From a virus (lineage: Duplodnaviria > Caudoviricetes): a stretch of DNA of 64,000 bases. The stretch lies in the IMG/VR virus record IMGVR_UViG_3300027971_000001; one strand, given 5' to 3'. The translations under genes and the position numbers were made by a program. Positions 5,981 to 60,436 of this stretch are shown here, one piece after another; position 1 is the first letter of the stretch, and each line of letters opens with the position of its first letter. The notes below the pieces were generated by a model. That model was not told the DNA's origin. It ran no database searches and saw only the letters and a program-made list of their open reading frames with translations.

Positions 5981-5991
5981 AAAATTATTTA

Positions 5992-6876: not shown

Positions 6877-6877
6877 T

Positions 6878-8797: not shown

Positions 8798-8826
8798 ATA
8801 AATTATTTAATTGTAAATTTCCTTTG

Positions 8827-11601: not shown

Positions 11602-11605
11602 AAAA

Positions 11606-31418: not shown

Positions 31419-31426
31419 TATTTATA
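31419..31426 (-). promoter_or_regulatory. T4-late-promoter-like TATAAATA upstream of tail sheath (representative of at least 25 TAAATA sites)
   Basis: TATAAATA 6 nt before the sheath ATG; identical to the T4 gp55-dependent late -10 consensus. Confidence 0.7.
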
Positions 31427-33696: not shown

Positions 33697-33716
33697 GTGA
33701 TATAAATACTTAACGT

Positions 33717-34992: not shown

Positions 34993-36039
34993 ATGCCATT
35001 TGAATATCATAAAGATCTAAATTCAAAGTTTTGGAAAGAATTTAAACTGGACAAATCGGTATCAGGTAAACTTGTTGATATTGCTTTGGATTTTTATCGA
35101 AATTTAAAAACAAATGCTCCCTTAGAAGACATTGAACTTACAGGTTCTTTGACCAATTATACATATACAAAAAAGAGCGATCTGGATCTGCATTTACGAT
35201 TGGATTTTAGCAAGGTAAAAGCCAAACCGGATTTGGTAAAACAATTGTTTGAAGGTGAAAAGTACAAATGGAATTTGAATCATGACATTGTTATTCGGCA
35301 ACATCCTGTTGAGATATACATTGAAGATATCAGTGTAAAACCTTATGCAACCAAACCAGTTTATAGTCTTTTAAAAAATAAATGGATTCAAAAGCCATCA
35401 TATAATCCACCTGAAATAGACGAACAAAATGTTAATAAAAAATTTGAAGCTTATAAAAATGAAATAGATTCTTTGGTTAAACTGCTGAACAAAAGTGATT
35501 GTCGTATCATTTTTCGTCAAATACACAATCGGGCCAAAGCATTACGGGAAAGATTGGCAGATGCCAGAAAAGAATGCATGCAAGACAAAACAACCATATT
35601 TGATTTTTGTATTGAAAATCTTGTTTTTAAAAAATTACGGGATGCAGGATATTTGGATAAATTAAATGATTTGAAACTGGAAGCTTATGACAAAATATTC
35701 ACAGAACAAACATGGAACAGTGGTTTGCATACTCTTTTCATGAGTGATCTGATGGGTAAACAAAAGAAAACAAAAGATCCTCGTCATATGAAACCTGTGA
35801 TTCGTGATCCAGGAACACGTAAGCATGTGAGAACTGTTCCTAAAATGCACCAGAATTTGGACACTTTTCCTGAAGTAGGAATGCTTAAAAAAGCCAAAGG
35901 TAGAAAGATTGTGAGTGAACCTAGGGCCATGCAAATTGCCGCATTTTATAATATAACTTTAGGAGAAAAACCTACCAAGCTGGGAAAATCACCTGTAAGT
36001 ATAAGAAAAAAAAATAATATATATGTATTGGAGAGCTAA
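34993..36039 (+). CDS. Pol-beta-superfamily nucleotidyltransferase-domain protein
   Basis: DIELTGSLTNYTYTKKSDLDLHL carries the GS-x-DxD catalytic signature; third acidic residue in PVEIYIED. Confidence 0.75.
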   Translation: MPFEYHKDLNSKFWKEFKLDKSVSGKLVDIALDFYRNLKTNAPLEDIELTGSLTNYTYTKKSDLDLHLRLDFSKVKAKPDLVKQLFEGEKYKWNLNHDIVIRQHPVEIYIEDISVKPYATKPVYSLLKNKWIQKPSYNPPEIDEQNVNKKFEAYKNEIDSLVKLLNKSDCRIIFRQIHNRAKALRERLADARKECMQDKTTIFDFCIENLVFKKLRDAGYLDKLNDLKLEAYDKIFTEQTWNSGLHTLFMSDLMGKQKKTKDPRHMKPVIRDPGTRKHVRTVPKMHQNLDTFPEVGMLKKAKGRKIVSEPRAMQIAAFYNITLGEKPTKLGKSPVSIRKKNNIYVLES

Positions 36040-36809
36040 TGAGCGTTGATCGTTATCTAGGTCCAGGATGTGTATCGGTATATCCTTTCACATATACTCC
36101 AAGTGTTTTACGCTTTACTGACAAAGAAAACAATGAATGTGAACGGGAAGTTATAGGCAATCAATTAAGAGAACAAATTGATCTTTTTGGTCAAAAAGTT
36201 AATTATTGGCAAAATCCTTACAGTACACTAAGTGCTGACAATATATACGGAGAAGATCCTACAAGAAACTGGCCCGAACCTAAATCAATCATAATGGGCA
36301 TAAAATTGGACGAGGATAACCTTACAATCAATCAATTTGGTTTTGATGCTCAAGACTACATGACAGCAACAGTAGCCATAAGCAGCTTTTATTCAGTATT
36401 CGGACCGGGCCAAGAACCCAAAAGCGGAGATATTATAAAATTAACTGAATATGGTAATGATCGTCCTGGTGATAGGGATGGAAAATTGTTTGAAGTAACT
36501 CAGCGGCTGGACAGTGAAAACAGCACCATCAATCCTTTGGCCAGTCATTATCTTTGGTTTTTGAAACTGAAACGTTTTGATTATTCAGAGGAAGTTAATC
36601 TGCCTAATGAAAAAGGTAATTTACAAGTAATGGACAATACAGGGTATGGAACCCTGTCTGCCACACTTAGTGGAAAACAACCAGACAAACCTCGTCCTGA
36701 AACACTAGGAAATAGTGCTCAAGAAGTCACTAAGCGGTTTGTTTTCGATTATTCAGGAACCAGTAATGATAACGTGTATGGCACTTATGATGTGCATACT
36801 GGCGAATAA
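36039..36809 (+). CDS. gp14: Neck (head closure) protein, gp14-like
   Basis: EQIDLFGQKVNYW...NIYGEDP...FGFDAQDYMTATV...EPKSGDIIKL...LFEVT...FDYSEE resembles T4 gp14. Confidence 0.75.
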   Translation: MSVDRYLGPGCVSVYPFTYTPSVLRFTDKENNECEREVIGNQLREQIDLFGQKVNYWQNPYSTLSADNIYGEDPTRNWPEPKSIIMGIKLDEDNLTINQFGFDAQDYMTATVAISSFYSVFGPGQEPKSGDIIKLTEYGNDRPGDRDGKLFEVTQRLDSENSTINPLASHYLWFLKLKRFDYSEEVNLPNEKGNLQVMDNTGYGTLSATLSGKQPDKPRPETLGNSAQEVTKRFVFDYSGTSNDNVYGTYDVHTGE

Positions 36810-39065: not shown

Positions 39066-40034
39066 TCAACACATTTTCAATCGGGCTTTTGGTCCATTGA
39101 ATGTATTTTTTAATATAAAGTCTGTTTCAATACCGTTGATTTTCTTATCCAGACACATTTCGTTAAGATCCTTATAATCTAAATCTTTCGGCCAAACAAA
39201 AACTTTTTGATTTATTTCAATTAATTGTTTCATTTTCTTGCGAGCAGTTTCATCTTTGTTTTGATTGTCCAAAACCCATATTTTGGTATGCAAAGGAAAG
39301 TTGTTCAATTGTGATTCTTGTTTATCTGTAAGACTGCTTCGGGATTTATTAATGCCAGATACTGCTACTCCATTTCGGCAAAAGCATGAATCGATTGGTC
39401 CTTCAAATATGAAAATGTATGGATAGTCGGTTATTTTATCTGCATTAAAAAGACTTCTATCCCCACCGGATTTTGAAAGATAATTGGGCAATTCAGATTC
39501 ATCGGAAGGAAGTTTACGACTTTGATAGTAAACAATCTTTCCGTCTAAATCGTAAAAAGGAATAATCAACCGATTTTTATGGATATAATCTACTGAAGAA
39601 AACCAAAAACTTTTAGGTCTGTTTACTGCTGAATGCAATCGACGGCTGCAAACATAACTCACACACTCTTTAAAATACCGATTTTTCATGTTCTTAAAAA
39701 CCTGAGTTGTATCGAAAATATTAATAGAGTCTTTTGGTAAGATTTCTGGTTCAATCACCTTTTCCTCTTCTTGCTGTTTGATTCGATCATTTATGAAGTT
39801 TTTTTCATTCATTGGCTTGCCTGTCAGATCATAATATAATTTGTATAATTTTGCGCTATATCCGCAATTGAAACAATAACAGCTATTTGTTTTTGTATAA
39901 AAATAAAACCGTTTGCGTTTAAGCCAAGAATCACCTTCCCGGCATATGGGACAGCATGCCGTATAAGTTTGATTGTATTTGCTGTAACTTAATTTTGATA
40001 AATGACCACTAAGAAAACTATGCACATCAATCAT
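39066..40034 (-). CDS. gp61: DNA primase (T4 gp61-like)
   Basis: Zinc finger CPICREGDS...CYCFNCG, RLIIPFYD...YYQSR, TOPRIM FIFEGPIDS and WVLDN, KDLNEM. Confidence 0.92.
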   Translation of the reverse strand: MIDVHSFLSGHLSKLSYSKYNQTYTACCPICREGDSWLKRKRFYFYTKTNSCYCFNCGYSAKLYKLYYDLTGKPMNEKNFINDRIKQQEEEKVIEPEILPKDSINIFDTTQVFKNMKNRYFKECVSYVCSRRLHSAVNRPKSFWFSSVDYIHKNRLIIPFYDLDGKIVYYQSRKLPSDESELPNYLSKSGGDRSLFNADKITDYPYIFIFEGPIDSCFCRNGVAVSGINKSRSSLTDKQESQLNNFPLHTKIWVLDNQNKDETARKKMKQLIEINQKVFVWPKDLDYKDLNEMCLDKKINGIETDFILKNTFNGPKARLKMC

Positions 40035-40092
40035 TCGTTGTATTTTAACATTATTATTGAAATATCAAATCTTATGTTTAAATAAACGCATT

Positions 40093-41607
40093 ATGGATCG
40101 GGACAAGTATTTTGACATGGGAATGCAGTTCATGGGACATGGAGTTTTTGATAAAGCCATAAAATATTTTGAAAAATGTTATGATTTATATGAAACAAAA
40201 GAACATAAAGCTCTTTGTTTGAATGCTCTTGGCAACGCTTTAGAAAAAGATGAACAAACCAAAAAAGCAGAGGAAACATATAAAAAAGCTATTGAAATGG
40301 ATCCCGATCAAAAATTATTTTATAATAATCTTTTCAATCTGCACAAATTTCAACGCAAAAACAAAGAAGCAATAGAGATCTTTACCAAACATTTGTACAA
40401 TCCACAGGACCCAAATCAAAAAATCATGTTGGCAGAGCTTTACACCAATGTGGCAAAGTATGAAGAAGCATATGATGCTTATCTGAACCTTATCAAACAA
40501 TTCCCCCAAGAAGTTTCTTTTTATTGGAAAATTGCACTCAGTTGCAACAGCATGGGAAGGAATGATGAAGCTGTTATGTGGGTGAATAGGGGAAAACAAA
40601 TAGATCCGGAAAATCATCATTGTAACATCGCTTTGGGTATTGCTCAATTGTTCAATAAACAAATAATCCCCGCTAAAAAGACGTTTGAGAATTTGAAAGT
40701 GGATCTTTATAGCAAAAAATGGTATCTGGCATATCTAACATTTCTTAAAAAAGATTATACAGAAGCATGGAAAAATTATGAAGTAAGAAATGAAGGAGTA
40801 TGGGCAGTAAAACCTTTAAGGGAAAAGCCTATGTGGGACGGTACTCCCATGCCAGACAAAACCATATTGGTGGCAGCTGAACAAGGGTTAGGAGACAATG
40901 TAATGGCAGCTCGATGGTTACAATTGCTTAAAAAACATTTTAAACACGTGAAATATTGGTGTAATCCCCGAATTTATGATGTAATGCTTCACTTGAAAGA
41001 AAAAACAGAAATTATTCAAAGTGCCAGTGATGCCACAAATTTTGATGTATGGATGCCCATCATGAGCATTCCTCAACGGCTAGGTCTTACCAATGATGAT
41101 ATGCTTTTAGATGATCCGTATTTGATTGTGGAACCTAAAAAACTGGAAGGGTCCAAGAAAAAAATTGGAATATGTTGGGCAGGAAGTAATAACCATCAAT
41201 ATAACCGATATCGCACAATATTTGAAAAAGACTATGATTTGCTTCGCAATCTTATTAAAAAGAATGATAAGTTTGAATGGTATTCATTGATTAAGGATGA
41301 ATATGAAGATGACAACGAAAAGTTGGGTATAACCAATCCTGTTAAAGATTTTAAAAATGTTTATGAAACAGCCCAATTTATAAAGGGATTGGATCTGGTC
41401 ATAAGCATAGATACCTTACAGGCACATTTAGCTGGTGCAATGAAAGTACCCACTGTTCTTATGCTTCCTTGGTTTCCTGAATGGCGTTGGGGTTTAGAAG
41501 GCGATACCACAGTTTGGTATCCTAGTGTGGAAATTATACGTCAAAATAAAGCTTTTGATTGGAAAAGCGTGATTGATCGTGTGGATGAAAGGTTGCAAAA
41601 ACTATGA
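40093..41607 (+). CDS. TPR-repeat protein fused to a GT-B (GT9-like) glycosyltransferase domain
   Basis: N-terminal TPRs (NALGNAL, YTNVAKYEEA); EQGLGDNVM, KIGICWAGS, DLVISIDTLQAHLAGAMKVPT and WRWG...WYPS, typical of TPR-GT9 proteins. Confidence 0.85.
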   Translation: MDRDKYFDMGMQFMGHGVFDKAIKYFEKCYDLYETKEHKALCLNALGNALEKDEQTKKAEETYKKAIEMDPDQKLFYNNLFNLHKFQRKNKEAIEIFTKHLYNPQDPNQKIMLAELYTNVAKYEEAYDAYLNLIKQFPQEVSFYWKIALSCNSMGRNDEAVMWVNRGKQIDPENHHCNIALGIAQLFNKQIIPAKKTFENLKVDLYSKKWYLAYLTFLKKDYTEAWKNYEVRNEGVWAVKPLREKPMWDGTPMPDKTILVAAEQGLGDNVMAARWLQLLKKHFKHVKYWCNPRIYDVMLHLKEKTEIIQSASDATNFDVWMPIMSIPQRLGLTNDDMLLDDPYLIVEPKKLEGSKKKIGICWAGSNNHQYNRYRTIFEKDYDLLRNLIKKNDKFEWYSLIKDEYEDDNEKLGITNPVKDFKNVYETAQFIKGLDLVISIDTLQAHLAGAMKVPTVLMLPWFPEWRWGLEGDTTVWYPSVEIIRQNKAFDWKSVIDRVDERLQKL

Positions 41608-42281
41608 AAACTGGTGCTGTGGTAGTTGAATATAAAAATCCTGAACAAACAAAAAAATGTAAGGATCATCTGAAAGATGTTGAAGTTTATTATCACGATA
41701 ATACTAAACATAATTTGGGATTCACAAAAGCATACAATATGGGAGTTTCGTATCTTCGAAACAAATATGAATATGTTTTATTGGTTAATAGTGATTGTTA
41801 TATTCATCCGGGGTTTTTCCGCAATATTGAAATTTTCATGGATACTCATCCAAAGTGTGGAATCGTAGGGGTTAAACAAATTGCTTCAGATGGTGAAATG
41901 ATAATCCATGGAGGTTGTACTCAAGCTTATCCATACGGCCAACATATAAGCGGAAAAGTGTCTTTGGGCATGTGCAATGAAAGCATGATGGTTCCATGGG
42001 TAAATGGTGCATGTTTTGTGGTCCGCAGCAAAATGATTGATGAAATAGGTCTGATGGATGAAAACATGTTTCTCATAGGTTCTGATAGTGATTGGTGTTT
42101 CACAGCAAGATCAAGAGGTTGGGAAGTGTGGTATTGTGCTGAAGCAAGCTGCACTCATGATGGCGGTGCCAGCATGAAACCAGGAAATGAAGAAACACAA
42201 GATATTATGTTTTTGGATATGAAATATTGGGAAACTAAATGGGTTACCGGAGGATTGTATAAAAATTTATGCGCATCCTGA
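41604..42281 (+). CDS. Glycosyltransferase family 2
   Basis: NLGFTKAYNMG...YVLLVNSDC...WVNGACFVVR...IGLMDENMFL..SDSDWC. Confidence 0.88.
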   Translation: MKTGAVVVEYKNPEQTKKCKDHLKDVEVYYHDNTKHNLGFTKAYNMGVSYLRNKYEYVLLVNSDCYIHPGFFRNIEIFMDTHPKCGIVGVKQIASDGEMIIHGGCTQAYPYGQHISGKVSLGMCNESMMVPWVNGACFVVRSKMIDEIGLMDENMFLIGSDSDWCFTARSRGWEVWYCAEASCTHDGGASMKPGNEETQDIMFLDMKYWETKWVTGGLYKNLCAS

Positions 42282-43669
42282 TGTTTAATCACCATCAAGA
42301 TTGTCTTCTGTATCTATGGAAGGCATTCCGTGAGCTTGGTATTCAAGTTGATGTGGCCAGTGAAGAATTGGTCAAATATCTTGGATTTCCTCCAGGAGGT
42401 ATAAGAAAAAACAAATTTGTTATTGCGAATATATCATTCGATCCGGAAATTGTTTATCCTGATTTTAAAAATATAAATTTTAGCAATGATTGGAATGGAT
42501 ATGACAAATATGTATCCATCATTCCTAACGATCTTTTTGCTGAAAAGACATGGTGGGATTGTCAAATGCAAAATGAATTGAAAGCATTTGGTCATTTGGA
42601 TGTTCTGAAAACATGTAATCATCCAAATGCTGAAACTTTCGGATTTCAATTTTGCCCTAATTGGGTGCCACATCAGACTGAACATAAAGAAAAGAAATAT
42701 ATAACACAAATAGTGTCACTTCCTGCTCTTGTTGAAGAAACGGGTGAACTCATGTATTTGAAGCATCACGGTTATGATGTAAAAATAGTGGGATCTCAGT
42801 TAGCTCCAGATGGTTTTTACAGGGATATTGATTTGCTTCCTTATACATCTCTTCTTGTTCACAATAAAAAGGTAGGAATCAATTGTTATGCTGTATGCAA
42901 AGCATTGGATACTGGCATTCCTGTATATATGGAACGAAGCACCAAGGAACTTATAGGATTTGGTGATCTTCCAGATGAACTTTTCTTTTTCAAAGATGAA
43001 ATGAGCATAGCTGAAGCTTTTGAAAAAAGTAAAGATATTGATAATAAAAAAATCCAGGAAACTTATCGAAGCATCTATACATTGGAAAGAACAGTGAACG
43101 CAGTTAAAAATATTTTACAAACAAATTTAAAAATGCCGGAAACCATAAATGAATATCATTTAAAAAATTGCAAAACTCCGAGTGATATAAATGAACATCT
43201 GCAAATATTAGAAACTTATGCAAAAAAGTGTGATACCATTTGTGAAATGGGTGTTAGAAAAGGCATTTCAACATGGTCATTTTTGAATGCTCGGCCCAAA
43301 AAATTGGTTTCATATGATATTGAATATTCTCAGGATCTTGAAAAACATAAACAATATGCAAAAAATGAAGGTTTGAATTATGAATATATCATTCAAGATG
43401 TTCTTAAAACACAGATTGATGAATACGATTTTCTATTCATAGACACATGGCATACATATTCTCAACTTAAACAGGAACTGGAATTGCATGCAAATAAAGC
43501 CAAAAAATATCTGGGATTTCATGATGTATTCTCATTTGGTCAAAGGGGAGAAGATAATCAAGATTTAGGACTAATTCCTGCTATTATGGAATTTTTAAAA
43601 GACAACTCTCAATGGAAAATAAGTTATTATACACCTAAAAATAATGGCTTGCTTATATTAGAAAAATGA
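42269..43669 (+). CDS. Putative glycosyltransferase-like N-terminal domain fused to a class I SAM methyltransferase (Methyltransf_24-like)
   Basis: GT-B-like start MRILMFNHH and YAVCKALDTGIPV; C-terminal DINEHL...CEMGVRKGISTWSF...FLFIDTWHTY...GFHDV. Confidence 0.7.
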   Translation: MRILMFNHHQDCLLYLWKAFRELGIQVDVASEELVKYLGFPPGGIRKNKFVIANISFDPEIVYPDFKNINFSNDWNGYDKYVSIIPNDLFAEKTWWDCQMQNELKAFGHLDVLKTCNHPNAETFGFQFCPNWVPHQTEHKEKKYITQIVSLPALVEETGELMYLKHHGYDVKIVGSQLAPDGFYRDIDLLPYTSLLVHNKKVGINCYAVCKALDTGIPVYMERSTKELIGFGDLPDELFFFKDEMSIAEAFEKSKDIDNKKIQETYRSIYTLERTVNAVKNILQTNLKMPETINEYHLKNCKTPSDINEHLQILETYAKKCDTICEMGVRKGISTWSFLNARPKKLVSYDIEYSQDLEKHKQYAKNEGLNYEYIIQDVLKTQIDEYDFLFIDTWHTYSQLKQELELHANKAKKYLGFHDVFSFGQRGEDNQDLGLIPAIMEFLKDNSQWKISYYTPKNNGLLILEK

Positions 43670-45135
43670 AAATTTACGATTTATTCACTTTTAATAATGA
43701 ACTAGACCTGCTGGAAATCAGGTTAAATGAACTGAACGATGTTGTTGAGAGATTTGTTATTTGTGAAAGCACAGTCACTCATAGCAATCAACCCAAACCT
43801 CTTTATTTTTCAAATAACCGGGAAAGATTCAGAAAATTTTTACACAAAATAGATTTGGTTATTTTTGATAATGTAAAAAAGACTGATAGCTGGAGCATTG
43901 AAAATGATCATCGTAGGGCTTTGAGTGAGAAAATACCGTTTAATTTGAATGATGAGGATATTCTTTTGCTTTCTGATTTAGATGAAATACCCAGCAAAAA
44001 CATACTAGAACAATTAAAAACAAGGAATGAAAGTCAATTTCCTGTGACTCTTTGTTATAGCATGTATAGCGGGTCTTTTCATAATCGTGTCATTAGTCCG
44101 GAAAATCAGCTGCATAACGACAGCACAGTTGCAATAAAATACAGTCAATACAAAACAAACAACGATCTGCAACATTACAGAAACATTCGATCACAAAGTC
44201 TTCCGCGCATATATGATGCAGGCTGGCATTTTACCAGTATGGGTGGACCCAAAAATGTTTTGAAAAAAATACAAAGTTTTGCTCATAATGAATATCGTGA
44301 TTCTGGAATAGTTTTCACAGATGATGAAATCCAAGAAAACATAAAACAAGGCAAAGATATATTTGGACGGATGGGATACGTTATAGAAAAAGTTGAATTA
44401 AATGACACTTTTCCCAAATATGTATTGGAAAACAAGGATAAATTCAAAAACCTTATTGAAGGAAATGATGTCAAGGTTTCGTTGGAAACCAAACATTCAT
44501 ATTATCTTTTACAACACATGTTATATAGCATAAAAAATGCCGATTATCAAAGTTCCAAAATAGATGGTCAATATATTGATCTTAAAGTCGAAGGTATGAC
44601 CTGTTCTGCAACAAAACATCTGGCTAATAATCTTGCAAGTTTATATAAATGCAATTATCTGGAGGTTGGTGTTTATAAAGGTGCAACGTTTATTGCGGGA
44701 TTATGGAAGAATACTCCAAATCTTTATGTGGGCGTGGACAATTGGAGTGAATATGGTGGTCAGGATGAGTTTCTGCAAAAATTAAAAAATGCAAACAAAC
44801 CTAAGCCATCAGGAAGTCGTCGTATTGTTTTTGATCAAGACAGTTTTTCAGAAGGAATATTGGACCATTTAAATGAAAAATTTGATGTGTATTTTTATGA
44901 TGGTTGCCATTCAAGAGAAGCGCAAAAACTTGCTCTTACACATTATAAGAAATACATGAAAGAATATTTTATATATTATTGTGATGATTACTCTAACAGC
45001 ATGGACGTGGTGTTTGGTACCATGGAAGGAATAGCTGAATCAGGTTTTGAGATAATTTATGACAAAATTTTATTGCCACGAAGCAAAGATGCTTGGCGGA
45101 ATGGAATTTATGTTGCTTTGCTTAAGAACAATTAA
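43666..45135 (+). CDS. GT17-like (beta-1,4-GlcNAc transferase) domain fused to a class I SAM methyltransferase
   Basis: KIYDLFTFNNELDLLEIRL...FVICES..THS..PKPLYF, SDLDEIP and GWHFT are GT17 motifs; C-terminal YLEVGVYKGAT...FDVYFYDGCHS. Confidence 0.82.
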   Translation: MKIYDLFTFNNELDLLEIRLNELNDVVERFVICESTVTHSNQPKPLYFSNNRERFRKFLHKIDLVIFDNVKKTDSWSIENDHRRALSEKIPFNLNDEDILLLSDLDEIPSKNILEQLKTRNESQFPVTLCYSMYSGSFHNRVISPENQLHNDSTVAIKYSQYKTNNDLQHYRNIRSQSLPRIYDAGWHFTSMGGPKNVLKKIQSFAHNEYRDSGIVFTDDEIQENIKQGKDIFGRMGYVIEKVELNDTFPKYVLENKDKFKNLIEGNDVKVSLETKHSYYLLQHMLYSIKNADYQSSKIDGQYIDLKVEGMTCSATKHLANNLASLYKCNYLEVGVYKGATFIAGLWKNTPNLYVGVDNWSEYGGQDEFLQKLKNANKPKPSGSRRIVFDQDSFSEGILDHLNEKFDVYFYDGCHSREAQKLALTHYKKYMKEYFIYYCDDYSNSMDVVFGTMEGIAESGFEIIYDKILLPRSKDAWRNGIYVALLKNN

Positions 45136-45506
45136 GATGGCTTTACCGGCCAAACGATAAGACGAGGATCACTGGCATATGTCTGGGGAATGTCGCGTAA
45201 TGTTTGACGATATGAAACCCATTGAGTGTTGTCTGGAAGGGAAACATCACGCAACTGGGACCAATCGCTATCCACAAGAAGACCATTCCGTTTGATAATT
45301 ACATCATTCCAATAAGCAGCAAGACGATCTGGAACTTGGGTAAGCTGAAGAACTTGAGCTTTACCTTCTGCAACCTGCTGATTGACATATTGTTCCCATG
45401 TTTGATTACCTCCACCAAAAGGATTATAAGGTTGATCTTTAGCCATACGGCATATCACCACATCACCTGTTTCATAATAACTGCCGTAATCAATATAGGT
45501 TGTCAT
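45132..45506 (-). CDS. Tail fibre assembly chaperone
   Basis: RNGLLVDSDWSQLRD...WVSYRQTLRDIPQ...WPVKP. Confidence 0.85.
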   Translation of the reverse strand: MTTYIDYGSYYETGDVVICRMAKDQPYNPFGGGNQTWEQYVNQQVAEGKAQVLQLTQVPDRLAAYWNDVIIKRNGLLVDSDWSQLRDVSLPDNTQWVSYRQTLRDIPQTYASDPRLIVWPVKPS

Positions 45507-45522
45507 ATAATATATTTATTCT

Positions 45523-46800
45523 TTATGCGTTGTTCAAAAGAGGACTAGTGCAAAGATTTATGTTAAAATTATTGTTAAATCCGGGGTTCATGACCAAACC
45601 ACTTCCTGCGTTAAGGGGTATAAAATATACTTTTCCATTAGGATGATTTATATAAAATCCATATGGTGAAGAACCCCCCACACTAGGAACCCTTAACGTT
45701 GTTATTGATAAATCATCTGGATCGATCCAAGCAATCAATGTTTGAGAACCAGATGATGTGAAAATTTTTCCATTAGCTAATTTTGTTGGATGTTGGCAAC
45801 CATTCAATCCTCCAGTTGAATAAGTGCTTATTGCATAATTATTATCGGGATCAACGACACCTAATACATTTCCAATAACTGGAACAAATATTATTTTACC
45901 ATTTTGTGCTTGTTCATATAAGGATGAACCAGCAAGTATTGACGTGTCGCTTATTCCATAACTGCTGACACTATCATCAGAAGGATCAACAACCCGCATC
46001 AAAGTTATTCCGTATCCTGGAATAGGAGAGCTAAATACTCTTCCATTTCGTAATGTAATTGCTCGAGCATATCCTCCTGTTGATGGCAATGAAATGCTAC
46101 TGATTGTGTCATTCGCGGGATTTATAACAAATATAAAATTATTAATATTTGTAGGGAAACAATATATTTTTCCGCTTGAACCTAATGCACCTCCTGCACA
46201 TTTGTCGGATCCTACAGGTCCTATTATGCTTGAGACTGTATTATTACTTGGATCCAATATTGCTACAGCTGTATTACCATCAGGAATACAATATATTTTA
46301 CCGTTAGGTGCCAACACACTTCCTTGATATTTCCCATTAGCATTTGCTTGAATAGGTCCAAACGTACCTATGGTATTATCTGAAGGATTTATAACATAAC
46401 CAACTGTAGCCGTATAAGGTGCAAGATATATTTTTCCATTCGGTGCAATTGTTCCACCAGTAAATGCACTCGTTCCTGGGAAACTTCCAGAACCATAAAT
46501 TTCAAATGTTGCGGCACTAATAGAAATATTTTTATTGCTTAATTGCAAACCTTTAATGTGTGAACTTATGCTTGAAAAATTGGTATATGATGCACCATTT
46601 GTCCAACCCGGAACTTGCATGTGTAAAAACTGATTAATCTGTTCAGCATTTCCTGTTCCGCTGCTGGTACGACCCAGAAACTGACTGTCCTGTAATTGCT
46701 GAATCTTATCGGTTGTGACGCTATTATTCGCCAATTTGACGGTGGGTACACCTAAATTGCGTCTCATCTTGGCAGCGGAAAGTGCGGGGGTTATTGGCAT
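45523..46800 (-). CDS. Putative receptor-binding protein, GGxLAPNGKIY beta-propeller, paralogue 1
   Basis: About seven 42-44-aa blade repeats, diverging toward the C-terminus; N- and C-terminal motifs shared with the two neighbours. Confidence 0.7.
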   Translation of the reverse strand: MPITPALSAAKMRRNLGVPTVKLANNSVTTDKIQQLQDSQFLGRTSSGTGNAEQINQFLHMQVPGWTNGASYTNFSSISSHIKGLQLSNKNISISAATFEIYGSGSFPGTSAFTGGTIAPNGKIYLAPYTATVGYVINPSDNTIGTFGPIQANANGKYQGSVLAPNGKIYCIPDGNTAVAILDPSNNTVSSIIGPVGSDKCAGGALGSSGKIYCFPTNINNFIFVINPANDTISSISLPSTGGYARAITLRNGRVFSSPIPGYGITLMRVVDPSDDSVSSYGISDTSILAGSSLYEQAQNGKIIFVPVIGNVLGVVDPDNNYAISTYSTGGLNGCQHPTKLANGKIFTSSGSQTLIAWIDPDDLSITTLRVPSVGGSSPYGFYINHPNGKVYFIPLNAGSGLVMNPGFNNNFNINLCTSPLLNNA

Positions 46801-46808
46801 AAAATTAT

Positions 46809-48107
46809 TTAACTTCTGTTATAGAAAGGACTAAGACAAAAATTTATATTAAAATTATTATTTACTTGAGGAATCAATGCCAATGCTTGTGATGCATTAT
46901 GAGGAATCAGATATATTTTTCCATTCGGAGCCTGTATACCTCCTATATAATCTGCATTTGTAGGTGTGGATCCTCCAGCAAATGATCCAAAAGTTAAAAT
47001 TGTATTATTTGACGGATCAATTACAGAAGCTAATGTTGCGTAATAAGGTACACAGAGTATTTTGCCATTAGACATTAAAGTTCCACCACCAAACTTAAGA
47101 GTACCGCCACTCGCTGAAAAATTTCCAAATGTTGTTATTGTGTTATTATTCGGATCTATTAAAGTGCATATTGTGGTAGCTGAAGGAATAGTATATATTT
47201 TTCCGTTAGGTGCCAATACAGCTGCTCCATAACTGTCTGCTAAGTTTATAAAAGTTCCAAAACTAGAAACTGTATTATTACTTGGATCAATAATATATAC
47301 AACAGTTAAATTTCTAGGAATGCAATAAATTTTTCCATTAGGAGCCAAAACACCTGTTGCAAATTTATTTCCGGTAGCTGGTGCATTTCCAAATGTTGTT
47401 ACACTATTGTTTGATGGATCAATATAAGCAAACACGGTTGCATCATAAGGAATCATATATATTTTTCCGTTGGGTGCAACGACACCTGTAGCATAATTAT
47501 CTGATGCTGGCGCAGGAGGCAAAGTTCCAAAATTTGTTACAGTATTATTTGATGGATCTATTACAACTGCAATACTATTTCTTCCAGGAGTAAAATATAT
47601 TTTTCCGTTAGGAGCACATACACCACCACTATATTTATTTCCTCCTACAAATGCAGCAGGGAAAGAACCAAATGTAGTTGTTGTGTTATTATTTGGATTT
47701 ATAATGACACAAACATTTCCATCATAAGGAGCACAATATATATTTCCATTAGGAGCCAATACACCACCATTAAGAGATTGAGTACCAGAAAAACTACCAA
47801 AATATTCAAAATAAACTGCAGTGGCTGGACTTGTATTTGTATTTATAACCTGATTAATATATGCACTCAAACTGCTCCATGCTGTTGTTGCATTATAAGG
47901 TGCGCTCAGAGGACTGGTCAGACTAATATCCGGATAGCTTTGTGTAGGGGTTACGTTTCCATTTCCAGTTTGCAGATTATTCCGGCCTATAAATTCTCCT
48001 TGCCCTATTTGAAAAATTTTGTCGGTGCTAAAAGAATTATCCGCGAGTTTACGGGTTTCTATTCCGTTATCTCGTGCCATTTTTGCCAGATCTGTTGCGT
48101 TGCTCAT
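46809..48107 (-). CDS. Putative receptor-binding protein, GGxLAPNGKIY beta-propeller, paralogue 2
   Basis: Seven blade repeats (GGVLAPNGNIY, GGVCAPNGKIY, GVVAPNGKIY, etc.). Confidence 0.7.
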   Translation of the reverse strand: MSNATDLAKMARDNGIETRKLADNSFSTDKIFQIGQGEFIGRNNLQTGNGNVTPTQSYPDISLTSPLSAPYNATTAWSSLSAYINQVINTNTSPATAVYFEYFGSFSGTQSLNGGVLAPNGNIYCAPYDGNVCVIINPNNNTTTTFGSFPAAFVGGNKYSGGVCAPNGKIYFTPGRNSIAVVIDPSNNTVTNFGTLPPAPASDNYATGVVAPNGKIYMIPYDATVFAYIDPSNNSVTTFGNAPATGNKFATGVLAPNGKIYCIPRNLTVVYIIDPSNNTVSSFGTFINLADSYGAAVLAPNGKIYTIPSATTICTLIDPNNNTITTFGNFSASGGTLKFGGGTLMSNGKILCVPYYATLASVIDPSNNTILTFGSFAGGSTPTNADYIGGIQAPNGKIYLIPHNASQALALIPQVNNNFNINFCLSPFYNRS

Positions 48108-48115
48108 GATTTTAT

Positions 48116-49360
48116 TTAATATTTGTTAAACATTGGATTAGTACAAACATTTATGTTGAAATTATTGTTAAGAAGCAAGCATAATGCCCTACCCACTGTT
48201 GCACTGGATGGAATAAAATATATCTTTCCATTAGGATCCAACACACCTCCAACATAAGCAGCACTTCCTGGAAAACTACCATATGTGGTTACGGTATTAT
48301 TCGATGGATCAACAAATCTACCCACTGTTGCATTGGTTGGAACAAAATATATTTTTCCATTGGGAGCAAGTACGCCTCCTTCATGACCACCTCCTGGAAA
48401 ACTTCCATATGTGGTTACGGTATTATTCGATGGATCAACAATAACACCCACTGTTGCACTGGTTGGAACAAAATATAGTTGTCCGTTAGGAGCCAACACA
48501 CCTCCAACATAAGCAGCACTTCCTGGAAAACTACCATATGTGGTTACGGTATTATTCGATGGATCAACAAATCTACCCACTGTTGCATTGTGTGGAACTA
48601 AATATATTTTTCCATTAGGAGCGAGTACTCCCCCTATATAAGCATCATTTCCTGGAAAACTGCCATATGTGGTTACGGTATTATTCGATGGATCCACAAA
48701 TCTACCCACTGTTGCAGCGCGTGGGAAAAAATATATTTTTCCATTTGGAGCAAGTGCACCTCCTTCATTAGAAAGAACCCCAGGAAAACTACCATATGTG
48801 GTTACAGTATTGTTAGCAGGATCAACAAATCTACCCACTGTTGCAACGCTTGAACAAAAATATATATTTCCATTAGGAGCTAGTACACCTCCAACATAAG
48901 CACCACCTCCTGGAAAACTACCATATGTGGTTACGGTATTGTTATTCGGATCGATAATAGCACCTACTGTTGCAGTGCGTGGAACTAGATATATCTTGCC
49001 GTTTGGAGCTATCACACCTCCTTCATAAACACCACTCCCCGGAAAACTGCCATACTGTTCAACATAACTCGCATTCGCCGGAACCAGACTATTTGTTTCG
49101 GCCACACTGCTCAGATAATATTGCAATGTACTCCAGTTGGTTATGTGTGCTCCTGTGGTCCAATCCGGTACCTGCACATCATACCAAGGTTGTACTTGTT
49201 GTGAGTTGCCAGTGCCTGCTGACATATTACGACCCAAAAATCGGTCACTAGCTACTTGTTGTATCTTGCTGGTTGCAGCTACGTTAGATGATAAAAAATC
49301 ACGGGTCACGCCCAGATCTCGGGCCATTTTTGCACCAGATAATGCAAGAGTAATAGGCAT
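48116..49360 (-). CDS. Putative receptor-binding protein, GGxLAPNGKIY beta-propeller, paralogue 3, with near-identical blades
   Basis: Seven 42-43-aa repeats that are conserved at DNA level. Confidence 0.72.
   Translation of the reverse strand: MPITLALSGAKMARDLGVTRDFLSSNVAATSKIQQVASDRFLGRNMSAGTGNSQQVQPWYDVQVPDWTTGAHITNWSTLQYYLSSVAETNSLVPANASYVEQYGSFPGSGVYEGGVIAPNGKIYLVPRTATVGAIIDPNNNTVTTYGSFPGGGAYVGGVLAPNGNIYFCSSVATVGRFVDPANNTVTTYGSFPGVLSNEGGALAPNGKIYFFPRAATVGRFVDPSNNTVTTYGSFPGNDAYIGGVLAPNGKIYLVPHNATVGRFVDPSNNTVTTYGSFPGSAAYVGGVLAPNGQLYFVPTSATVGVIVDPSNNTVTTYGSFPGGGHEGGVLAPNGKIYFVPTNATVGRFVDPSNNTVTTYGSFPGSAAYVGGVLDPNGKIYFIPSSATVGRALCLLLNNNFNINVCTNPMFNKY
48238..49050. repeat. Intragenic tandem repeat, about 7 units of 129 bp (one of 126 bp)
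   Basis: GGAAAACT anchor at 48270, 48396, 48525, 48654, 48783, 48912 and 49041; a 98-bp exact duplicate at 48238-48335 and 48493-48590. Confidence 0.92.
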
Positions 49361-49411
49361 ATAATTTATTTATTCAAAACCCGCTTCAGAAACACTGAAG
49401 GATTTTTATAA

Positions 49412-49768
49412 TTATTGACCAGGAGGTGTGGGCCAAACAACATCATCAGGAGAAGGAAATGCTTCTGTTATATCCCGGAGTTTTTGACGATATTCCGCCC
49501 ATGTCTGGCGATTTACAGGACTATCTGCACTTTGAGTCCAATCACTCTCTTGTAACAGACGATTCCTTTTTTCCCGTATTACAGCCCATTTAAAATTTGT
49601 TTCATCTTGCGATAACAAATTATAAATTTCCGAAGATGATGGACGTGCATCATTTAGCAACCATTTTGTTACAATATATTGGTTATTATAAGGCGACAAA
49701 ACAAGTTCATAATCCCCAGCTTTGATGTTGGGATATTTGCGTTGAAGGGCTAGAAGTATTTTGTCCAT
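49412..49768 (-). CDS. Tail fibre assembly chaperone
   Basis: IREKRNRLLQESDWTQSADSP...WAEYRQKLRDIT...WPTPP. Confidence 0.88.
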   Translation of the reverse strand: MDKILLALQRKYPNIKAGDYELVLSPYNNQYIVTKWLLNDARPSSSEIYNLLSQDETNFKWAVIREKRNRLLQESDWTQSADSPVNRQTWAEYRQKLRDITEAFPSPDDVVWPTPPGQ

Positions 49769-49773
49769 AAATT

Positions 49774-60413: not shown

Positions 60414-60436
60414 TGGTTTTATTTATATCAGCAGGA

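What the first reader, a model, noticed from the sequence alone, without database searches (positions are those of the whole stretch)
40093..45135. Four-gene glycan-building operon (TPR-GT9, GT2, GT-MTase, GT17-MTase) converging on the tail-fibre cassette
Seen: four overlapping ORFs encode about four GT domains, two SAM methyltransferase domains and one TPR array, ending tail-to-tail with the fibre chaperone. Known: TPRs recruit protein substrates (as in OGT); GT17 adds beta-GlcNAc; GT-MTase fusions cap or O-methylate glycans. Inference: an assembly line for a methylated oligosaccharide on protein acceptors (virion shielding) or on the host surface (superinfection exclusion). DNA modification seems less likely because no base-hypermodification genes are adjacent. 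No nucleotide-sugar synthesis genes are in the window.
Basis: partly seen in the sequence, partly recalled or inferred. Interest (0 to 1): 0.75.

Follow-up and report, generated by a model that had tools for sequence, protein, structure and literature searches.

The report
Phage four-enzyme methylated-glycan operon
An uncultured freshwater T4-like phage carries a conserved four-gene operon (four sugar-adding domains, two methyl-adding domains, one protein-binding repeat array) whose first enzyme resembles the bacterial flagellin glycosylase FlmG, so it probably attaches a short methylated sugar chain to a protein, most likely a virion protein, though the target is not shown.

Summary
Four overlapping + strand genes (40093-45135) encode:
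- ORF1: a TPR array plus a GT9-fold domain.
- ORF2: a compact GT2.
- ORF3: a compact GT-B domain of a narrow, Pfam-less family that I met only on phage-type contigs, plus a cation-dependent O-methyltransferase.
- ORF4: GT17 plus a second O-methyltransferase.

Family-conserved residues are intact where I could check them. None of the four proteins has a membrane segment. dN/dS is 0.05-0.13. The block is syntenic in relatives down to 44% identity.

New here:
- Over its whole length, ORF1's best Swiss-Prot structural match is Caulobacter FlbA, which I take to be FlmG (inferred). FlmG is a cytoplasmic flagellin O-glycosyltransferase whose TPR domain binds its protein substrate.
- Phage homologues of ORF1 lie in or beside virion modules in six independent contexts. 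In one T4-like clade the gene sits directly beside the major capsid gene.
- The ORF3 GT-B domain and GT17 form a conserved adjacent gene pair in nine phage lineages.

Best reading (about 0.45): a cytoplasmic protein O-glycosylation line acting on virion proteins. Remodelling of a host surface glycan (about 0.27) and DNA glycosylation (about 0.08) are not excluded. Glycosyltransferase islands among the fibre genes of aquatic T4-like phages are already described, and earlier notes of this scan report other glycan islands in this genome. Product and target remain untested.

The parts
40035..40092 (+). Divergent intergenic region shared with the primase gene (39066-40034, - strand). It holds TTTAAATA at 40077-40084, 8 nt before the ORF1 ATG.
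   Evidence: The motif and its spacing are conserved in 8 relatives, while the bases after it vary. NNTAAATA lies 3-10 nt upstream of 23 of 55 genes, including sheath, tube and most fibre-type genes. Those sites are 23 of the 72 TAAATA occurrences in the window. TATAAATA is the T4 late-promoter consensus (my own knowledge).
40093..40791 (+). ORF1 N-terminal TPR array (residues 1-233, 14 helices, about 7 repeats).
   Evidence: Pfam TPR_8, TPR_12 and others. AlphaFold model pLDDT 94.5. Structural matches to TPR proteins and to the TPR domains of OGT and TMTC.
40837..41607 (+). ORF1 C-terminal GT-B domain with a GT9 (heptosyltransferase-like) fold (residues 249-504).
   Evidence: VIA-align Z 17 to a Veillonella GT9 (3tov), WaaF (1psw) and WaaC (2h1f); Z 15.7 to the protein heptosyltransferase TibC (4rap). 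Most homologues carry PF01075. EQGLGD and D..DT..AHLAGA are invariant in 50 family members. Whole protein against Caulobacter FlbA (taken to be FlmG): E 3.9e-21, TM 0.69.
41604..42281 (+). ORF2, a compact 225-aa GT2 (GT-A) glycosyltransferase of the rhamnosyltransferase-like subfamily.
   Evidence: PF13641 at 47.1 bits and PF13632 at 35.7 bits, both against a cut-off of 27. TIGR01556 rhamnosyltransferase E 4e-13, below its curated cut-off. NSD and DSD motifs are present in the sequence. This is the most divergent gene of the block between close relatives (74% identity against 94-95% for its neighbours).
42269..43135 (+). ORF3 N-terminal compact GT-B domain (residues 1-289) of a narrow family without a Pfam model ('GT-B285'), met here only on phage-type contigs.
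   Evidence: No Pfam, NCBIfam or PHROG hit. GT-B fold with Z 16-17.7 to BshA, PglA, TarM, PimA and the phage HY126 glycosyltransferase. Only 28 50%-identity clusters among 1.84 billion proteins. H9, D11, D186 and K211 are invariant in 48 members. GT17 lies directly downstream in 9 lineages.
43136..43669 (+). ORF3 C-terminal class I cation-dependent O-methyltransferase domain (residues 290-466).
   Evidence: Z 18.4 to 8c9v, Z 16.4 to the sugar O-methyltransferase MeT1 (6g7d), Z 15.0 to the rhamnosyl 4'-O-methyltransferase SpnH (4cdz). Foldseek E 1e-7 to 1e-8 to the CCoAOMT-type (caffeoyl-CoA O-methyltransferase) class. Pfam Methyltransf_24 at 22.3 bits, below the 26.3 cut-off. ExGxxxG and D..H motifs are visible.
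43666..44466 (+). ORF4 N-terminal GT17 domain (residues 2-267).
   Evidence: PF04724 E 3.5e-34, 118.8 bits against a cut-off of 26. ORF4 carries the majority residue at 47 positions that are at least 90% conserved across 89 homologues, including D104-x-D106-E107.
44563..45135 (+). ORF4 C-terminal Methyltransf_24 O-methyltransferase domain (about residues 300-489).
   Evidence: PF13578 at 29.3 bits against 26.3. phrog_1458 E 9e-14. It aligns with the ORF3 methyltransferase domain with the same motifs.
45132..45506 (-). Context: tail-fibre assembly chaperone, convergent with ORF4 and overlapping it by 4 bp. Fibre-type genes follow at 45523-51144 (- strand).
   Evidence: Pfam Phage_tail_APC; phrog_4912 tail fiber assembly; DUF5074, DUF6923 and Caud_bapl16_2nd matches and tail-fiber PHROGs in the following genes.

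Best explanation
The operon is a cytoplasmic protein O-glycosylation line.
1. ORF1 works like FlmG or OGT. Its TPR array binds a folded protein acceptor, and its GT9-fold domain puts the first sugar on a Ser or Thr. By analogy with GT9 and TibC this could be a heptose from ADP-heptose; the donor is not known.
2. ORF2 (GT2), the ORF3 GT-B domain and the ORF4 GT17 domain each add one further sugar. The last two are an ancient adjacent pair and probably catalyse consecutive steps.
3. The two fused O-methyltransferase domains methylate the sugars that their own glycosyltransferase domains add, or cap the chain.

The most likely acceptors are the phage's own virion proteins (fibre, baseplate or head), giving a methylated glycan coat on the particle.

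Shown: the domain folds, intact conserved motifs, soluble proteins, operon structure, purifying selection, and the synteny and context statistics.
Inferred: a protein acceptor, a virion target, the order of steps, the donors, and late expression.
For: 1. ORF1's full-length structural match is Caulobacter FlbA, 596 aa (E 3.9e-21, TM 0.69, residues 5-503 against 59-592).
   - I take FlbA to be FlmG: same organism, same length of 596 residues, and the flbA locus is cited for flmG.
   - FlmG's TPR domain binds flagellin and its GT-B domain glycosylates it in the cytoplasm (PMC7591256).
   - The next matches are SPINDLY and OGT.
2. The GT9 fold includes the protein heptosyltransferase TibC (Z 15.7).
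3. Phage homologues of ORF1 lie in or beside virion modules in 6 of 6 independent contexts:
   - this lineage, next to fibre genes;
   - a T4-like clade where a lone 382-396 aa TPR-GT9 gene abuts the major capsid gene gp23 inside the portal-protease-gp23 block, on three contigs from different samples;
   - a 44-kb podovirus, two genes after the capsid gene and followed by an FkbM methyltransferase and a galT-like gene;
   - S-SRM01, downstream of a tail-fibre gene, with a sulfotransferase and a glycosyltransferase;
   - BUCT-ZZ01, between tail fibre/BNR genes and VrlC;
   - Rhizobium phage RHph_X2_30, convergent on the tail module.
4. All four proteins lack membrane segments (maximum Kyte-Doolittle 19-residue mean 1.04). 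Their catalytic domains are acidic (pI 5.7-6.0), unlike what I would expect of DNA-binding enzymes; that expectation is my own.
5. ORF1 is preceded by the same NNTAAATA motif, at the same spacing, as the sheath, tube and most fibre-type genes. The primase, ribonucleotide reductase large subunit and clamp-loader genes lack it.
6. Precedents:
   - mycobacteriophage virion glycosylation (Freeman 2023, cited in PMC11256854);
   - chlorovirus A064R, a GT-GT-methyltransferase fusion that builds and methylates the capsid glycan (PMC9614988).
Against: - There is no direct evidence for any acceptor.
- Gene neighbourhood is circumstantial, and the ends of tail modules are common sites for accessory genes.
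- TPR domains also act as oligomerisation or scaffold modules in polysaccharide enzymes. A capsule-polymerase multienzyme (8qoy) aligns over residues 1-504 with Z 13.8.
- In other T4-like phages the GT-B285/GT17 pair sits among nucleotide-metabolism and rII genes, not among structural genes.
- In cyanophages GT17 lies in large LPS-like sugar islands.
- The authors who described glycosyltransferases in the host-recognition cluster of pelagimyophages favour modification of the host O-chain (PMC7029224).
- NNTAAATA could be an AT-rich translation-initiation signal rather than a late promoter.
- Bacterial members of the TPR-GT9 family show no informative neighbours in the two genomes I looked at.
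Confidence: 0.45

Rival explanations
1. Host surface remodelling. The soluble enzymes act at the inner face of the membrane on the host's lipid-linked LPS, O-antigen, capsule or S-layer glycan precursors. They add or methylate sugars so that the infected cell no longer adsorbs competing phages or the phage's own progeny.
For: - GT9, GT2 and GT4-like folds and sugar O-methyltransferases are the standard toolkit of LPS and O-antigen synthesis. The best matches for the ORF1 catalytic domain are WaaC and WaaF.
- Glycosyltransferases inside the fibre-containing host-recognition cluster of pelagimyophages and cyanomyophages are read this way by their describers (PMC7029224).
- GT17 in cyanophages sits in LPS-like islands with dTDP/CDP-sugar pathways.
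- TPR domains occur in capsule polymerases (8qoy).
Against: - The full-length fold match is to a protein glycosyltransferase (FlbA, taken to be FlmG) and to OGT-type enzymes, not to TPR-less LPS enzymes.
- There is no flippase, polymerase, Gtr-type membrane component or any membrane segment in the operon.
- A lone TPR-GT9 gene embedded beside gp23 in the head module of another T4-like clade is hard to explain as an LPS gene.
Confidence: 0.27
2. Glycosylation of a host or non-virion protein, or of a small molecule. Examples are host flagellin, pilin, a receptor or a defence protein. ORF1 would still work like FlmG or OGT.
For: - The FlmG-like architecture only implies a protein acceptor, not a phage one.
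- The TPR-GT9 family is large in bacteria, with 7291 hits, where the acceptors must be cellular.
Against: - Phage copies sit in or beside structural modules in all six contexts examined.
- An operon that builds about four sugars with two methylations is an elaborate way to inactivate a host protein.
Confidence: 0.12
3. DNA hypermodification. The glycosyltransferases build a methylated glycan on a modified base (5hmC or 5-hydroxycytosine) of the phage DNA to evade restriction, as in T-even phages, RB69-like phages and metavirome gene clusters.
For: - T4-like phages are the classic users of GT-B DNA glycosyltransferases.
- The ORF3 GT-B domain matches the phage HY126 glycosyltransferase (9iqz, Z 16.8) and the T4 alpha-glucosyltransferase (1y6f, Z 15.1), among many other GT-B enzymes. 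HY126 DNA carries arabinosylated 5-hydroxycytosine.
- Phage gene clusters add mono- to trisaccharides, including heptose, to 5hmC, and some lie near structural genes (bioRxiv 10.1101/2023.12.21.572611).
- In other phages the GT-B285/GT17 pair lies near ribonucleotide reductase, ThyX and rII genes.
Against: - No cytosine methyltransferase, TET-type dioxygenase, dCMP hydroxymethylase or hydroxylase was found among the window ORFs scanned.
- A TPR array and two sugar O-methyltransferase domains have no precedent that I know of in DNA glycosylation.
- All catalytic domains are acidic.
- The structural matches to DNA glycosyltransferases are no better than those to dozens of unrelated GT-B enzymes.
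- Unverified notes of this scan place other glycosyltransferases inside the replication gene block. Those are better DNA candidates.
Confidence: 0.08

Closest known systems
FlmG of Caulobacter crescentus, which I take to be Swiss-Prot P21296 'FlbA'. It defines a class of cytoplasmic flagellin O-glycosyltransferases (PMC7591256).
   Same: N-terminal TPR array plus C-terminal GT-B domain, soluble. It is the best full-length structural match (E 3.9e-21, TM 0.69). In FlmG the TPR domain binds the protein acceptor and the GT-B domain transfers the sugar.
   Different: - Identity is only 19% in the structural alignment, and sequence homology was not tested.
- FlmG uses pseudaminic acid and sits with nonulosonic-acid and flagellar genes. 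I found no such genes here.
- ORF1 is phage-encoded, its catalytic domain is closest to GT9 heptosyltransferases, and it heads an operon with three further glycosyltransferases.
Glycosyltransferases in the host-recognition (hypervariable) cluster of T4-like pelagimyophages and cyanomyophages (Zaragoza-Solas et al. 2020, PMC7029224).
   Same: Aquatic T4-like myovirus with glycosyltransferase genes placed among or next to tail-fibre genes in the structural region. Function is untested.
   Different: - That paper reports mainly GT8 and LPS-type genes and proposes modification of the host O-chain.
- It does not describe a TPR-GT9/GT2/GT-B-methyltransferase/GT17-methyltransferase operon, the FlmG-like enzyme or the GT-B285/GT17 pair.
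- Here the four-gene block itself is conserved, not hypervariable.
Chlorovirus PBCV-1 A064R (plus A061L): a GT-GT-methyltransferase fusion that builds the end of the capsid N-glycan (PMC9614988).
   Same: Virus-encoded, soluble fusions of glycosyltransferase domains with a class I SAM methyltransferase that O-methylates the sugar just added. The product decorates the virion.
   Different: - It is a eukaryotic virus making an N-linked glycan.
- The glycosyltransferase families are unrelated (GT-A of subfamily 34 type, and a novel family).
- There is no TPR initiating enzyme.
- Here the acceptor is unknown.
Mycobacteriophage virion glycosylation (Che8, Rita; Freeman et al. 2023, cited in PMC11256854).
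   Same: Phage-encoded glycosyltransferases that glycosylate the phage's own capsid proteins in the cytoplasm.
   Different: - The hosts are actinobacteria and the phages are siphoviruses.
- The glycosyltransferase genes lie near the genome end, and no TPR enzyme is described in the source I read.
- No sequence relationship was tested here.
GT9 heptosyltransferases WaaC and WaaF, and the autotransporter heptosyltransferase TibC.
   Same: Best structural matches for the ORF1 catalytic domain (Z 17.0-17.1 and 15.7). The N-terminal GD motif and the DT..HLA motif are conserved. TibC shows that this fold can glycosylate proteins.
   Different: - ORF1 itself does not reach any Pfam or NCBIfam GT9 threshold.
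- It has a TPR array that WaaC, WaaF and TibC lack.
- Donor and acceptor are unknown.
Phage DNA glycosyltransferases: T4 alpha-/beta-glucosyltransferase, the phage HY126 glycosyltransferase, and metavirome 5hmC glycan gene clusters.
   Same: T4-like phage; GT-B and GT-A enzymes in a multi-glycosyltransferase cluster; the ORF3 GT-B domain matches 9iqz and 1y6f at Z 15-17.
   Different: I found no partner base-modifying enzyme in the window. The operon has TPR and O-methyltransferase domains, its proteins are acidic, and the structural matches are not specific.

Membership tests
FlmG-class cytoplasmic protein O-glycosyltransferases | N-terminal TPR domain fused to a C-terminal GT-B domain, soluble | tested here: met
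   Model with pLDDT 94.5: 14 TPR helices plus a GT-B domain. No hydrophobic segment.
FlmG-class cytoplasmic protein O-glycosyltransferases | Full-length structural similarity to FlmG | tested here: met
   Foldseek against AFDB Swiss-Prot: P21296 FlbA ranks first, E 3.9e-21, TM 0.69 by query, residues 5-503 against 59-592. That FlbA is FlmG is inferred from organism, length and the cited locus.
FlmG-class cytoplasmic protein O-glycosyltransferases | Linked to nonulosonic-acid (pseudaminic or legionaminic acid) synthesis genes and to flagellin genes | tested here: not met
   No NeuB/Pse-type or flagellar family appeared among the window ORFs scanned with Pfam and PHROGs. Hence 'works like FlmG', not 'is a member'.
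FlmG-class cytoplasmic protein O-glycosyltransferases | The TPR domain binds the protein acceptor | not testable with these tools
   Needs two-hybrid, pull-down or reconstitution experiments.
CAZy GT9 (Pfam PF01075) | Profile match above the curated threshold | tested here: not met
   No PF01075 hit at E <= 0.01 for ORF1. TIGR02193 heptosyltransferase I scores 22.6 bits against a cut-off of 185 and covers residues 434-486 only. Most homologues at 26-37% identity do carry PF01075.
CAZy GT9 (Pfam PF01075) | GT9-type GT-B fold | tested here: met
   3tov, 1psw and 2h1f at Z 17.0-17.1 with 230-240 residues aligned at rmsd 2.8-3.1 A. They are the top catalytic-domain matches.
CAZy GT9 (Pfam PF01075) | Catalytic Asp in the N-terminal G-D motif and the D-T-x-x-x-H-L-A nucleotide-sugar motif | tested here: inconclusive
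   EQGLGD and D..DT..AHLAGA are invariant in 50 family members. Their equivalence to WaaC Asp13 and to the ADP-heptose site rests on my memory, not on an alignment made here.
CAZy GT17 (Pfam PF04724) | Profile match above threshold with conserved acidic motifs | tested here: met
   118.8 bits against a cut-off of 26, residues 2-267. D104-x-D106-E107 and 43 other positions that are at least 90% conserved are present.
CAZy GT17 (Pfam PF04724) | beta-1,4-GlcNAc transfer to mannose (GnT-III activity) | not testable with these tools
   No prokaryotic or phage GT17 with a known activity was encountered. phmmer finds no solved structure.
GT2 (Pfam PF13641 / PF00535) | Profile match above threshold | tested here: met
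   PF13641 47.1 bits (cut-off 27), PF13632 35.7 (cut-off 27), PF00535 23.9 (cut-off 23.3).
Methyltransf_24 / cation-dependent class I O-methyltransferases | Profile match above threshold; Rossmann methyltransferase fold with SAM and metal motifs | tested here: met
   ORF4: 29.3 bits against 26.3. ORF3: 22.3 bits, below the cut-off, but the fold scores Z 18.4 to 8c9v and Z 16.4 to MeT1. ExGxxxG and D..H motifs are present in both.
GT4 (retaining GT-B; Pfam Glycos_transf_1), considered for the ORF3 N-domain | Profile match and EX7E motif | tested here: not met
   No Pfam or NCBIfam hit. Only 28 sequence clusters are detectable. Where GT4 enzymes have EX7E (position judged from memory) the family has K..G......KA. 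The fold is GT-B and GT4-like. I file it as a separate GT-B family.
Phage DNA-glycosylation gene clusters | Co-located base-modifying enzyme (dCMP hydroxymethylase or hydroxylase, or C5-methyltransferase plus TET-type dioxygenase) | tested here: not met
   None was found among the window ORFs scanned. The rest of the genome could not be searched because no G000 is held.
Host-recognition cluster of aquatic T4-like myophages | Glycosyltransferases interspersed with tail-fibre genes in a hypervariable part of the structural region | tested here: inconclusive
   The operon abuts the fibre genes, and the fibre side varies between relatives. The four-gene block itself is conserved, and it lies between the primase gene and the fibres rather than between VrlC and gp14.

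The most novel reading that the evidence does not exclude
TPR-GT9 enzymes are a widespread, unrecognised class of phage-encoded, FlmG/OGT-like protein O-glycosyltransferases. They would start glycosylation of virion proteins (capsid in some clades, fibres here) in phages of Gram-negative and cyanobacterial hosts. In this freshwater T4-like lineage the initiating enzyme would have recruited a GT2, the phage-specific GT-B285/GT17 pair and two fused O-methyltransferases to build a methylated tetrasaccharide coat on the particle.
Probability: 0.35. Interest if true: 0.8.

Novelty: new variant of a known kind. Interest (0 to 1): 0.6.

Why it matters
Virion glycosylation by phage-encoded enzymes has, to my knowledge, been shown only for a few mycobacteriophages. 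The many glycosyltransferases of abundant aquatic T4-like phages are usually written off as LPS auxiliary genes.

An enzyme with the architecture of FlmG and OGT, found in or beside head or tail modules in several unrelated phage groups, gives a concrete and testable handle. The TPR domain can be used as bait to find the acceptor. If the acceptor is a virion protein, glycan coats on phage particles would be common in lakes and oceans. That would bear on adsorption, particle stability, grazing and the interpretation of host-range genes.

The work also defines two objects worth enzymology:
- a compact GT-B family without a Pfam model, met here only on phage-type contigs;
- its conserved pairing with GT17, a family I know to be characterised only in eukaryotes.

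Tried and rejected
- Near-identity DNA search of the operon in INPHARED: no match.
- No whole genome is held for this window, so genome-wide checks for base-modification or sugar-pathway genes were impossible.
- tRNA scan: none.
- Generic sigma-70 promoter and terminator scan of 39500-46000: counts equal to shuffles, nothing usable.
- Exact TATAAATA is not significantly enriched overall (14 against 9.0 +/- 3.2). Only the positional analysis of TAAATA was informative.
- Complex prediction of full-length ORF1 with the 294-aa LSA-repeat protein (5995-6876): no verdict (score 0.00; partner pLDDT 23, folded without an alignment). This says nothing either way.
- RNA-seq runs: no RNA holder was listed for the operon or for ORF1, so expression and timing could not be examined. 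DNA holders are freshwater or lake metagenomes from at least 16 studies.
- phmmer of ORF2 and ORF4 against PDB sequences: no hit.
- Pfam, NCBIfam and PHROGs give nothing for the ORF3 N-domain. The ESM Atlas feature search only hinted at viral Glycos_transf_1-like clusters.
- The neighbourhoods of two bacterial TPR-GT9 homologues were uninformative. One has an adjacent GT9 gene and sigma factors; the other has other TPR proteins.
- The DNA-glycosylation preprint does not mention GT17, GT2 by name, TPR or methyltransferase domains.
- I considered and rejected the TTG at 40057 as the ORF1 start.
- I considered filing the ORF3 N-domain under GT4 and rejected it: no profile match and no EX7E motif.

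Full report
**What the window is**

The window is part of an uncultured freshwater T4-like myovirus.
- PHROGs and Pfam identify tail sheath, tail tube, baseplate wedge and hub, tape measure, large terminase, clamp loader, primase, ribonucleotide reductase and several fibre-type genes.
- The large terminase is only 32-39% identical to that of any isolated phage (Cr30, phiM9, cyanomyoviruses).
- The operon DNA has no near match in INPHARED.
- The ORF1 stretch is present in freshwater or lake metagenomes from at least 16 studies.
- No whole genome is held for the window.

**The observation**

One search shows four + strand ORFs: 40057/40093-41607, 41604-42281, 42269-43669 and 43666-45135.
- They overlap by 4, 13 and 4 bp.
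- The last overlaps by 4 bp, tail-to-tail, the tail-fibre assembly chaperone gene 45132-45506.
- The true ORF1 start is the ATG at 40093. Close homologues are 504 aa and conservation of the upstream region runs up to that ATG.

The block is under strong purifying selection, with dN/dS 0.05-0.13 against three relatives. It is syntenic between the primase gene and the fibre genes in relatives down to 44% identity of ORF4. In those relatives the first downstream gene is a fibre gene, not the chaperone.

**ORF1: TPR array plus GT9-fold domain**

- Pfam sees only TPRs. NCBIfam gives a weak partial heptosyltransferase I hit.
- Residues 235-516 find more than 7000 homologues. Most carry TPRs plus PF01075 (Glyco_transf_9).
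- An AlphaFold model built on 50 homologues (pLDDT 94.5, pTM 0.87) has 14 TPR helices followed by a GT-B domain.
- The best solved matches for that domain are GT9 enzymes: 3tov, WaaF 1psw and WaaC 2h1f at Z 17.0-17.1, and the protein heptosyltransferase TibC at Z 15.7.
- The family-invariant motifs EQGLGD and D..DT..AHLAGA are present.

Against the AlphaFold models of Swiss-Prot, the best match by nine orders of magnitude is Caulobacter 'FlbA' (P21296, 596 aa). It scores E 3.9e-21 and TM 0.69 over residues 5-503, and SPINDLY and OGT follow. FlbA matches FlmG in organism and length, and the flbA locus is cited for flmG. I therefore take them to be the same protein.

FlmG is the founding member of a class of cytoplasmic flagellin O-glycosyltransferases. 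Its TPR domain binds the acceptor and its GT-B domain transfers the sugar (PMC7591256; bioRxiv 10.1101/2023.12.03.569772). So ORF1 has the architecture of a protein O-glycosyltransferase. It is not a demonstrable FlmG family member: identity is 19% in the structural alignment, and there are no nonulosonic-acid or flagellar genes nearby.

**ORF2: compact GT2**

ORF2 is a complete, compact GT2 above three Pfam thresholds. It is closest to the rhamnosyltransferase subfamily, but below that model's cut-off.

**ORF3: a new GT-B domain plus an O-methyltransferase**

- The first 289 residues hit no profile library.
- An exhaustive phmmer search of 1.84 billion representatives finds only 28 clusters.
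- The word-indexed search shows an abundant set of stand-alone proteins of about 285 aa at 50-55% identity.
- The model (pLDDT 94.4) is a compact GT-B fold. It scores Z 16-17.7 to BshA, PglA, TarM, PimA and GtfA, and also to the phage HY126 glycosyltransferase and the T4 alpha-glucosyltransferase.
- The family keeps H9, D11, D186 and K211 invariant but has no EX7E motif. I treat it as a separate GT-B family ('GT-B285') that I met only on phage-type contigs.
- Residues 290-466 are a class I cation-dependent O-methyltransferase. They score Z 18.4 to 8c9v, and match the sugar O-methyltransferases MeT1 and SpnH.

**ORF4: GT17 plus an O-methyltransferase**

- The GT17 match is solid (E 3.5e-34).
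- ORF4 carries the majority residue at 47 positions that are at least 90% conserved in 89 homologues, including the D-x-D-E motif.
- The C-terminal domain is Methyltransf_24, above its threshold.
- This methyltransferase domain is highly modular in metagenomes. It is found fused to GT17, GT2, FkbM-type methyltransferases and TPRs.

**General properties of the four proteins**

No protein has a membrane-like segment. All catalytic domains are acidic, with pI 5.7-6.0.

**Context evidence**

(a) GT-B285 and GT17 form a conserved pair.
- I scanned the fetched loci with HMMs built here. GT17 lies directly downstream of GT-B285 on the same strand in nine distinct phage lineages, down to 30% identity of the GT-B domain.
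- Three lineages with downstream DNA lack it.
- In those phages the pair is unfused. It sits with DUF5672, Methyltransf_24 and GT1 genes, and in one case with UDP-galactopyranose mutase and GDP-mannose dehydratase/epimerase genes. The neighbours there are ribonucleotide reductase, ThyX and rII genes rather than fibre genes.

(b) Phage homologues of ORF1 lie in or beside virion modules in every independent context I could examine.
- Freshwater Synechococcus phage S-SRM01: downstream of a tail-fibre gene, in a run of genes that includes a sulfotransferase and a glycosyltransferase.
- BUCT-ZZ01: between tail fibre/BNR genes and VrlC.
- A 44-kb podovirus: two genes after the major capsid gene, followed by an FkbM methyltransferase and a galT-like gene.
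- Rhizobium phage RHph_X2_30: a 1177-aa multi-glycosyltransferase convergent on the tail module.
- A separate T4-like clade: a lone 382-396 aa TPR-GT9 gene on the opposite strand directly beside gp23, inside the portal-protease-gp23 head block, on three contigs from different samples.

(c) BFVD holds further phage proteins with the same two-domain fold at TM 0.72-0.73.

**Expression signal**

TAAATA occurs 72 times on both strands of the window. Of these, 23 lie 3-10 nt upstream of a start codon, in 23 of 55 genes.
- These genes include the sheath, tube and tape-measure genes, most fibre-type genes, the chaperone and ORF1.
- ORF1 has TTTAAATA 8 nt before its ATG, and this is conserved in eight relatives.
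- The primase, ribonucleotide reductase large subunit and clamp-loader genes lack it.
- TATAAATA is the T4 late-promoter consensus (my own knowledge), so this fits late co-expression. An AT-rich translation-initiation signal is an alternative. No RNA data were available.

**Weighing the readings**

Protein O-glycosylation of virion proteins (0.45). Support comes from:
- the FlmG/OGT-like architecture;
- the recurrent placement in or beside structural modules, including beside gp23;
- soluble, acidic enzymes;
- the late-type upstream motif;
- precedents in mycobacteriophages (Freeman 2023, via PMC11256854) and in chlorovirus A064R, a GT-GT-methyltransferase fusion that builds and methylates the capsid glycan (PMC9614988).

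Points against this reading:
- nothing identifies the acceptor;
- gene neighbourhood is circumstantial;
- TPR domains also serve as scaffolds in capsule polymerases (8qoy);
- the GT-B285/GT17 pair is not near structural genes in other phages.

Host surface-glycan remodelling (0.27). This is the published interpretation for glycosyltransferases in the host-recognition cluster of pelagimyophages and cyanomyophages (PMC7029224). It fits the LPS-type folds and the cyanophage GT17 islands.

A host or other non-virion protein target (0.12). This keeps the FlmG-like mechanism but not the virion acceptor.

DNA hypermodification (0.08). It has real precedent in T4-like phages and in metavirome clusters. 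Here it lacks a partner base-modifying enzyme in the window, and it does not explain the TPR and O-methyltransferase domains.

**Relation to earlier notes of this scan**

All of these notes are unverified unless I say otherwise.
- The same genome is reported to hold several other glycan islands near fibre genes and a possible NDP-heptose-type activation trio. If real, that trio could supply a GT9-type donor.
- Separate glycosyltransferases inside the replication gene block would be better DNA-modification candidates.
- One note proposes LS[A/G/S] as a sequon. I checked only the enrichment. It is real against shuffles: 4-6 fold in the six large proteins 951-15052, and also in 49774-51144. It could equally be a structural repeat.
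- A co-fold of ORF1 with the most motif-rich protein gave no verdict.

**Verdict**

This is a new variant of a known kind (glycosyltransferase islands of aquatic T4-like phages; virus-encoded virion glycosylation). It yields three concrete new leads:
- a phage-encoded FlmG-like initiating enzyme;
- a GT-B family without a Pfam model, met here only on phage-type contigs;
- its conserved pairing with GT17.

Noticed in passing
whole window; for example 31419-31426(-), 33701-33708(+), 45509-45520(-), 40077-40084(+): NNTAAATA lies 3-10 nt (mostly 5-6) upstream of the start codon of 23 of 55 genes. That is 23 of all 72 TAAATA sites in the window. The spacing implies leaderless or near-leaderless late mRNAs if this is a T4-type late promoter; otherwise it is an AT-rich ribosome-binding substitute.
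   Followed up: partly
951-15052 (six large - strand genes), 49774-51144, 36039-36809: The tripeptide LS[A/G/S], often preceded by P, is 4-6 fold enriched over composition-matched shuffles in these putative distal tail and fibre proteins and in the neck protein. It is absent from the four glycosyltransferase/methyltransferase proteins. Protein 5992-6876 has three copies within 15 residues. It could be a sequon or simply a structural repeat.
   Followed up: partly
41604-42281 compared with L002:5744-6427: Mosaicism. In relative L002 the GT2 gene is only 74% identical in protein, while the flanking ORF1 and ORF3 are 95% and 94% identical. This suggests allele exchange at the GT2 step, perhaps a switch of sugar specificity.
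   Followed up: no
L047:8001-9149, L048:7001-8149, L049:6103-7293: In another T4-like clade a lone 382-396 aa TPR-GT9 gene lies on the opposite strand directly beside the major capsid gene gp23, inside the portal / prohead protease / gp23 block. It is conserved on three contigs from different samples.
   Followed up: partly
L012:7411-14012; L014:7049-12536: Unfused GT-B285 plus GT17 pairs in other T4-like phages. They sit with DUF5672 and Methyltransf_24 genes and, in L012, with UDP-galactopyranose mutase and GDP-mannose dehydratase/epimerase genes. This looks like a portable phage glycan module with its own sugar supply.
   Followed up: partly
L014:12626-13747 and L015:12785-13903: A T4-like phage contig encodes a protein with a prepilin-type N_methyl motif plus an SBP_bac_10 (DUF1559) domain, next to its glycan genes. 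From memory, this combination is typical of Planctomycetota and Verrucomicrobiota.
   Followed up: no
L020:4858-6597 (Prochlorococcus phage P-HM2 PHM2_101): The C-terminal 195 residues or so of this 579-aa hypothetical protein resemble the ORF4 methyltransferase domain (30% identity, E 5e-11). The gene sits in the tail-fibre region of this cyanophage.
   Followed up: no
58418-58951: An HNH_3 homing-endonuclease-like gene lies immediately upstream of the ribonucleotide reductase small and large subunit genes (59349-62710, opposite strand).
   Followed up: no
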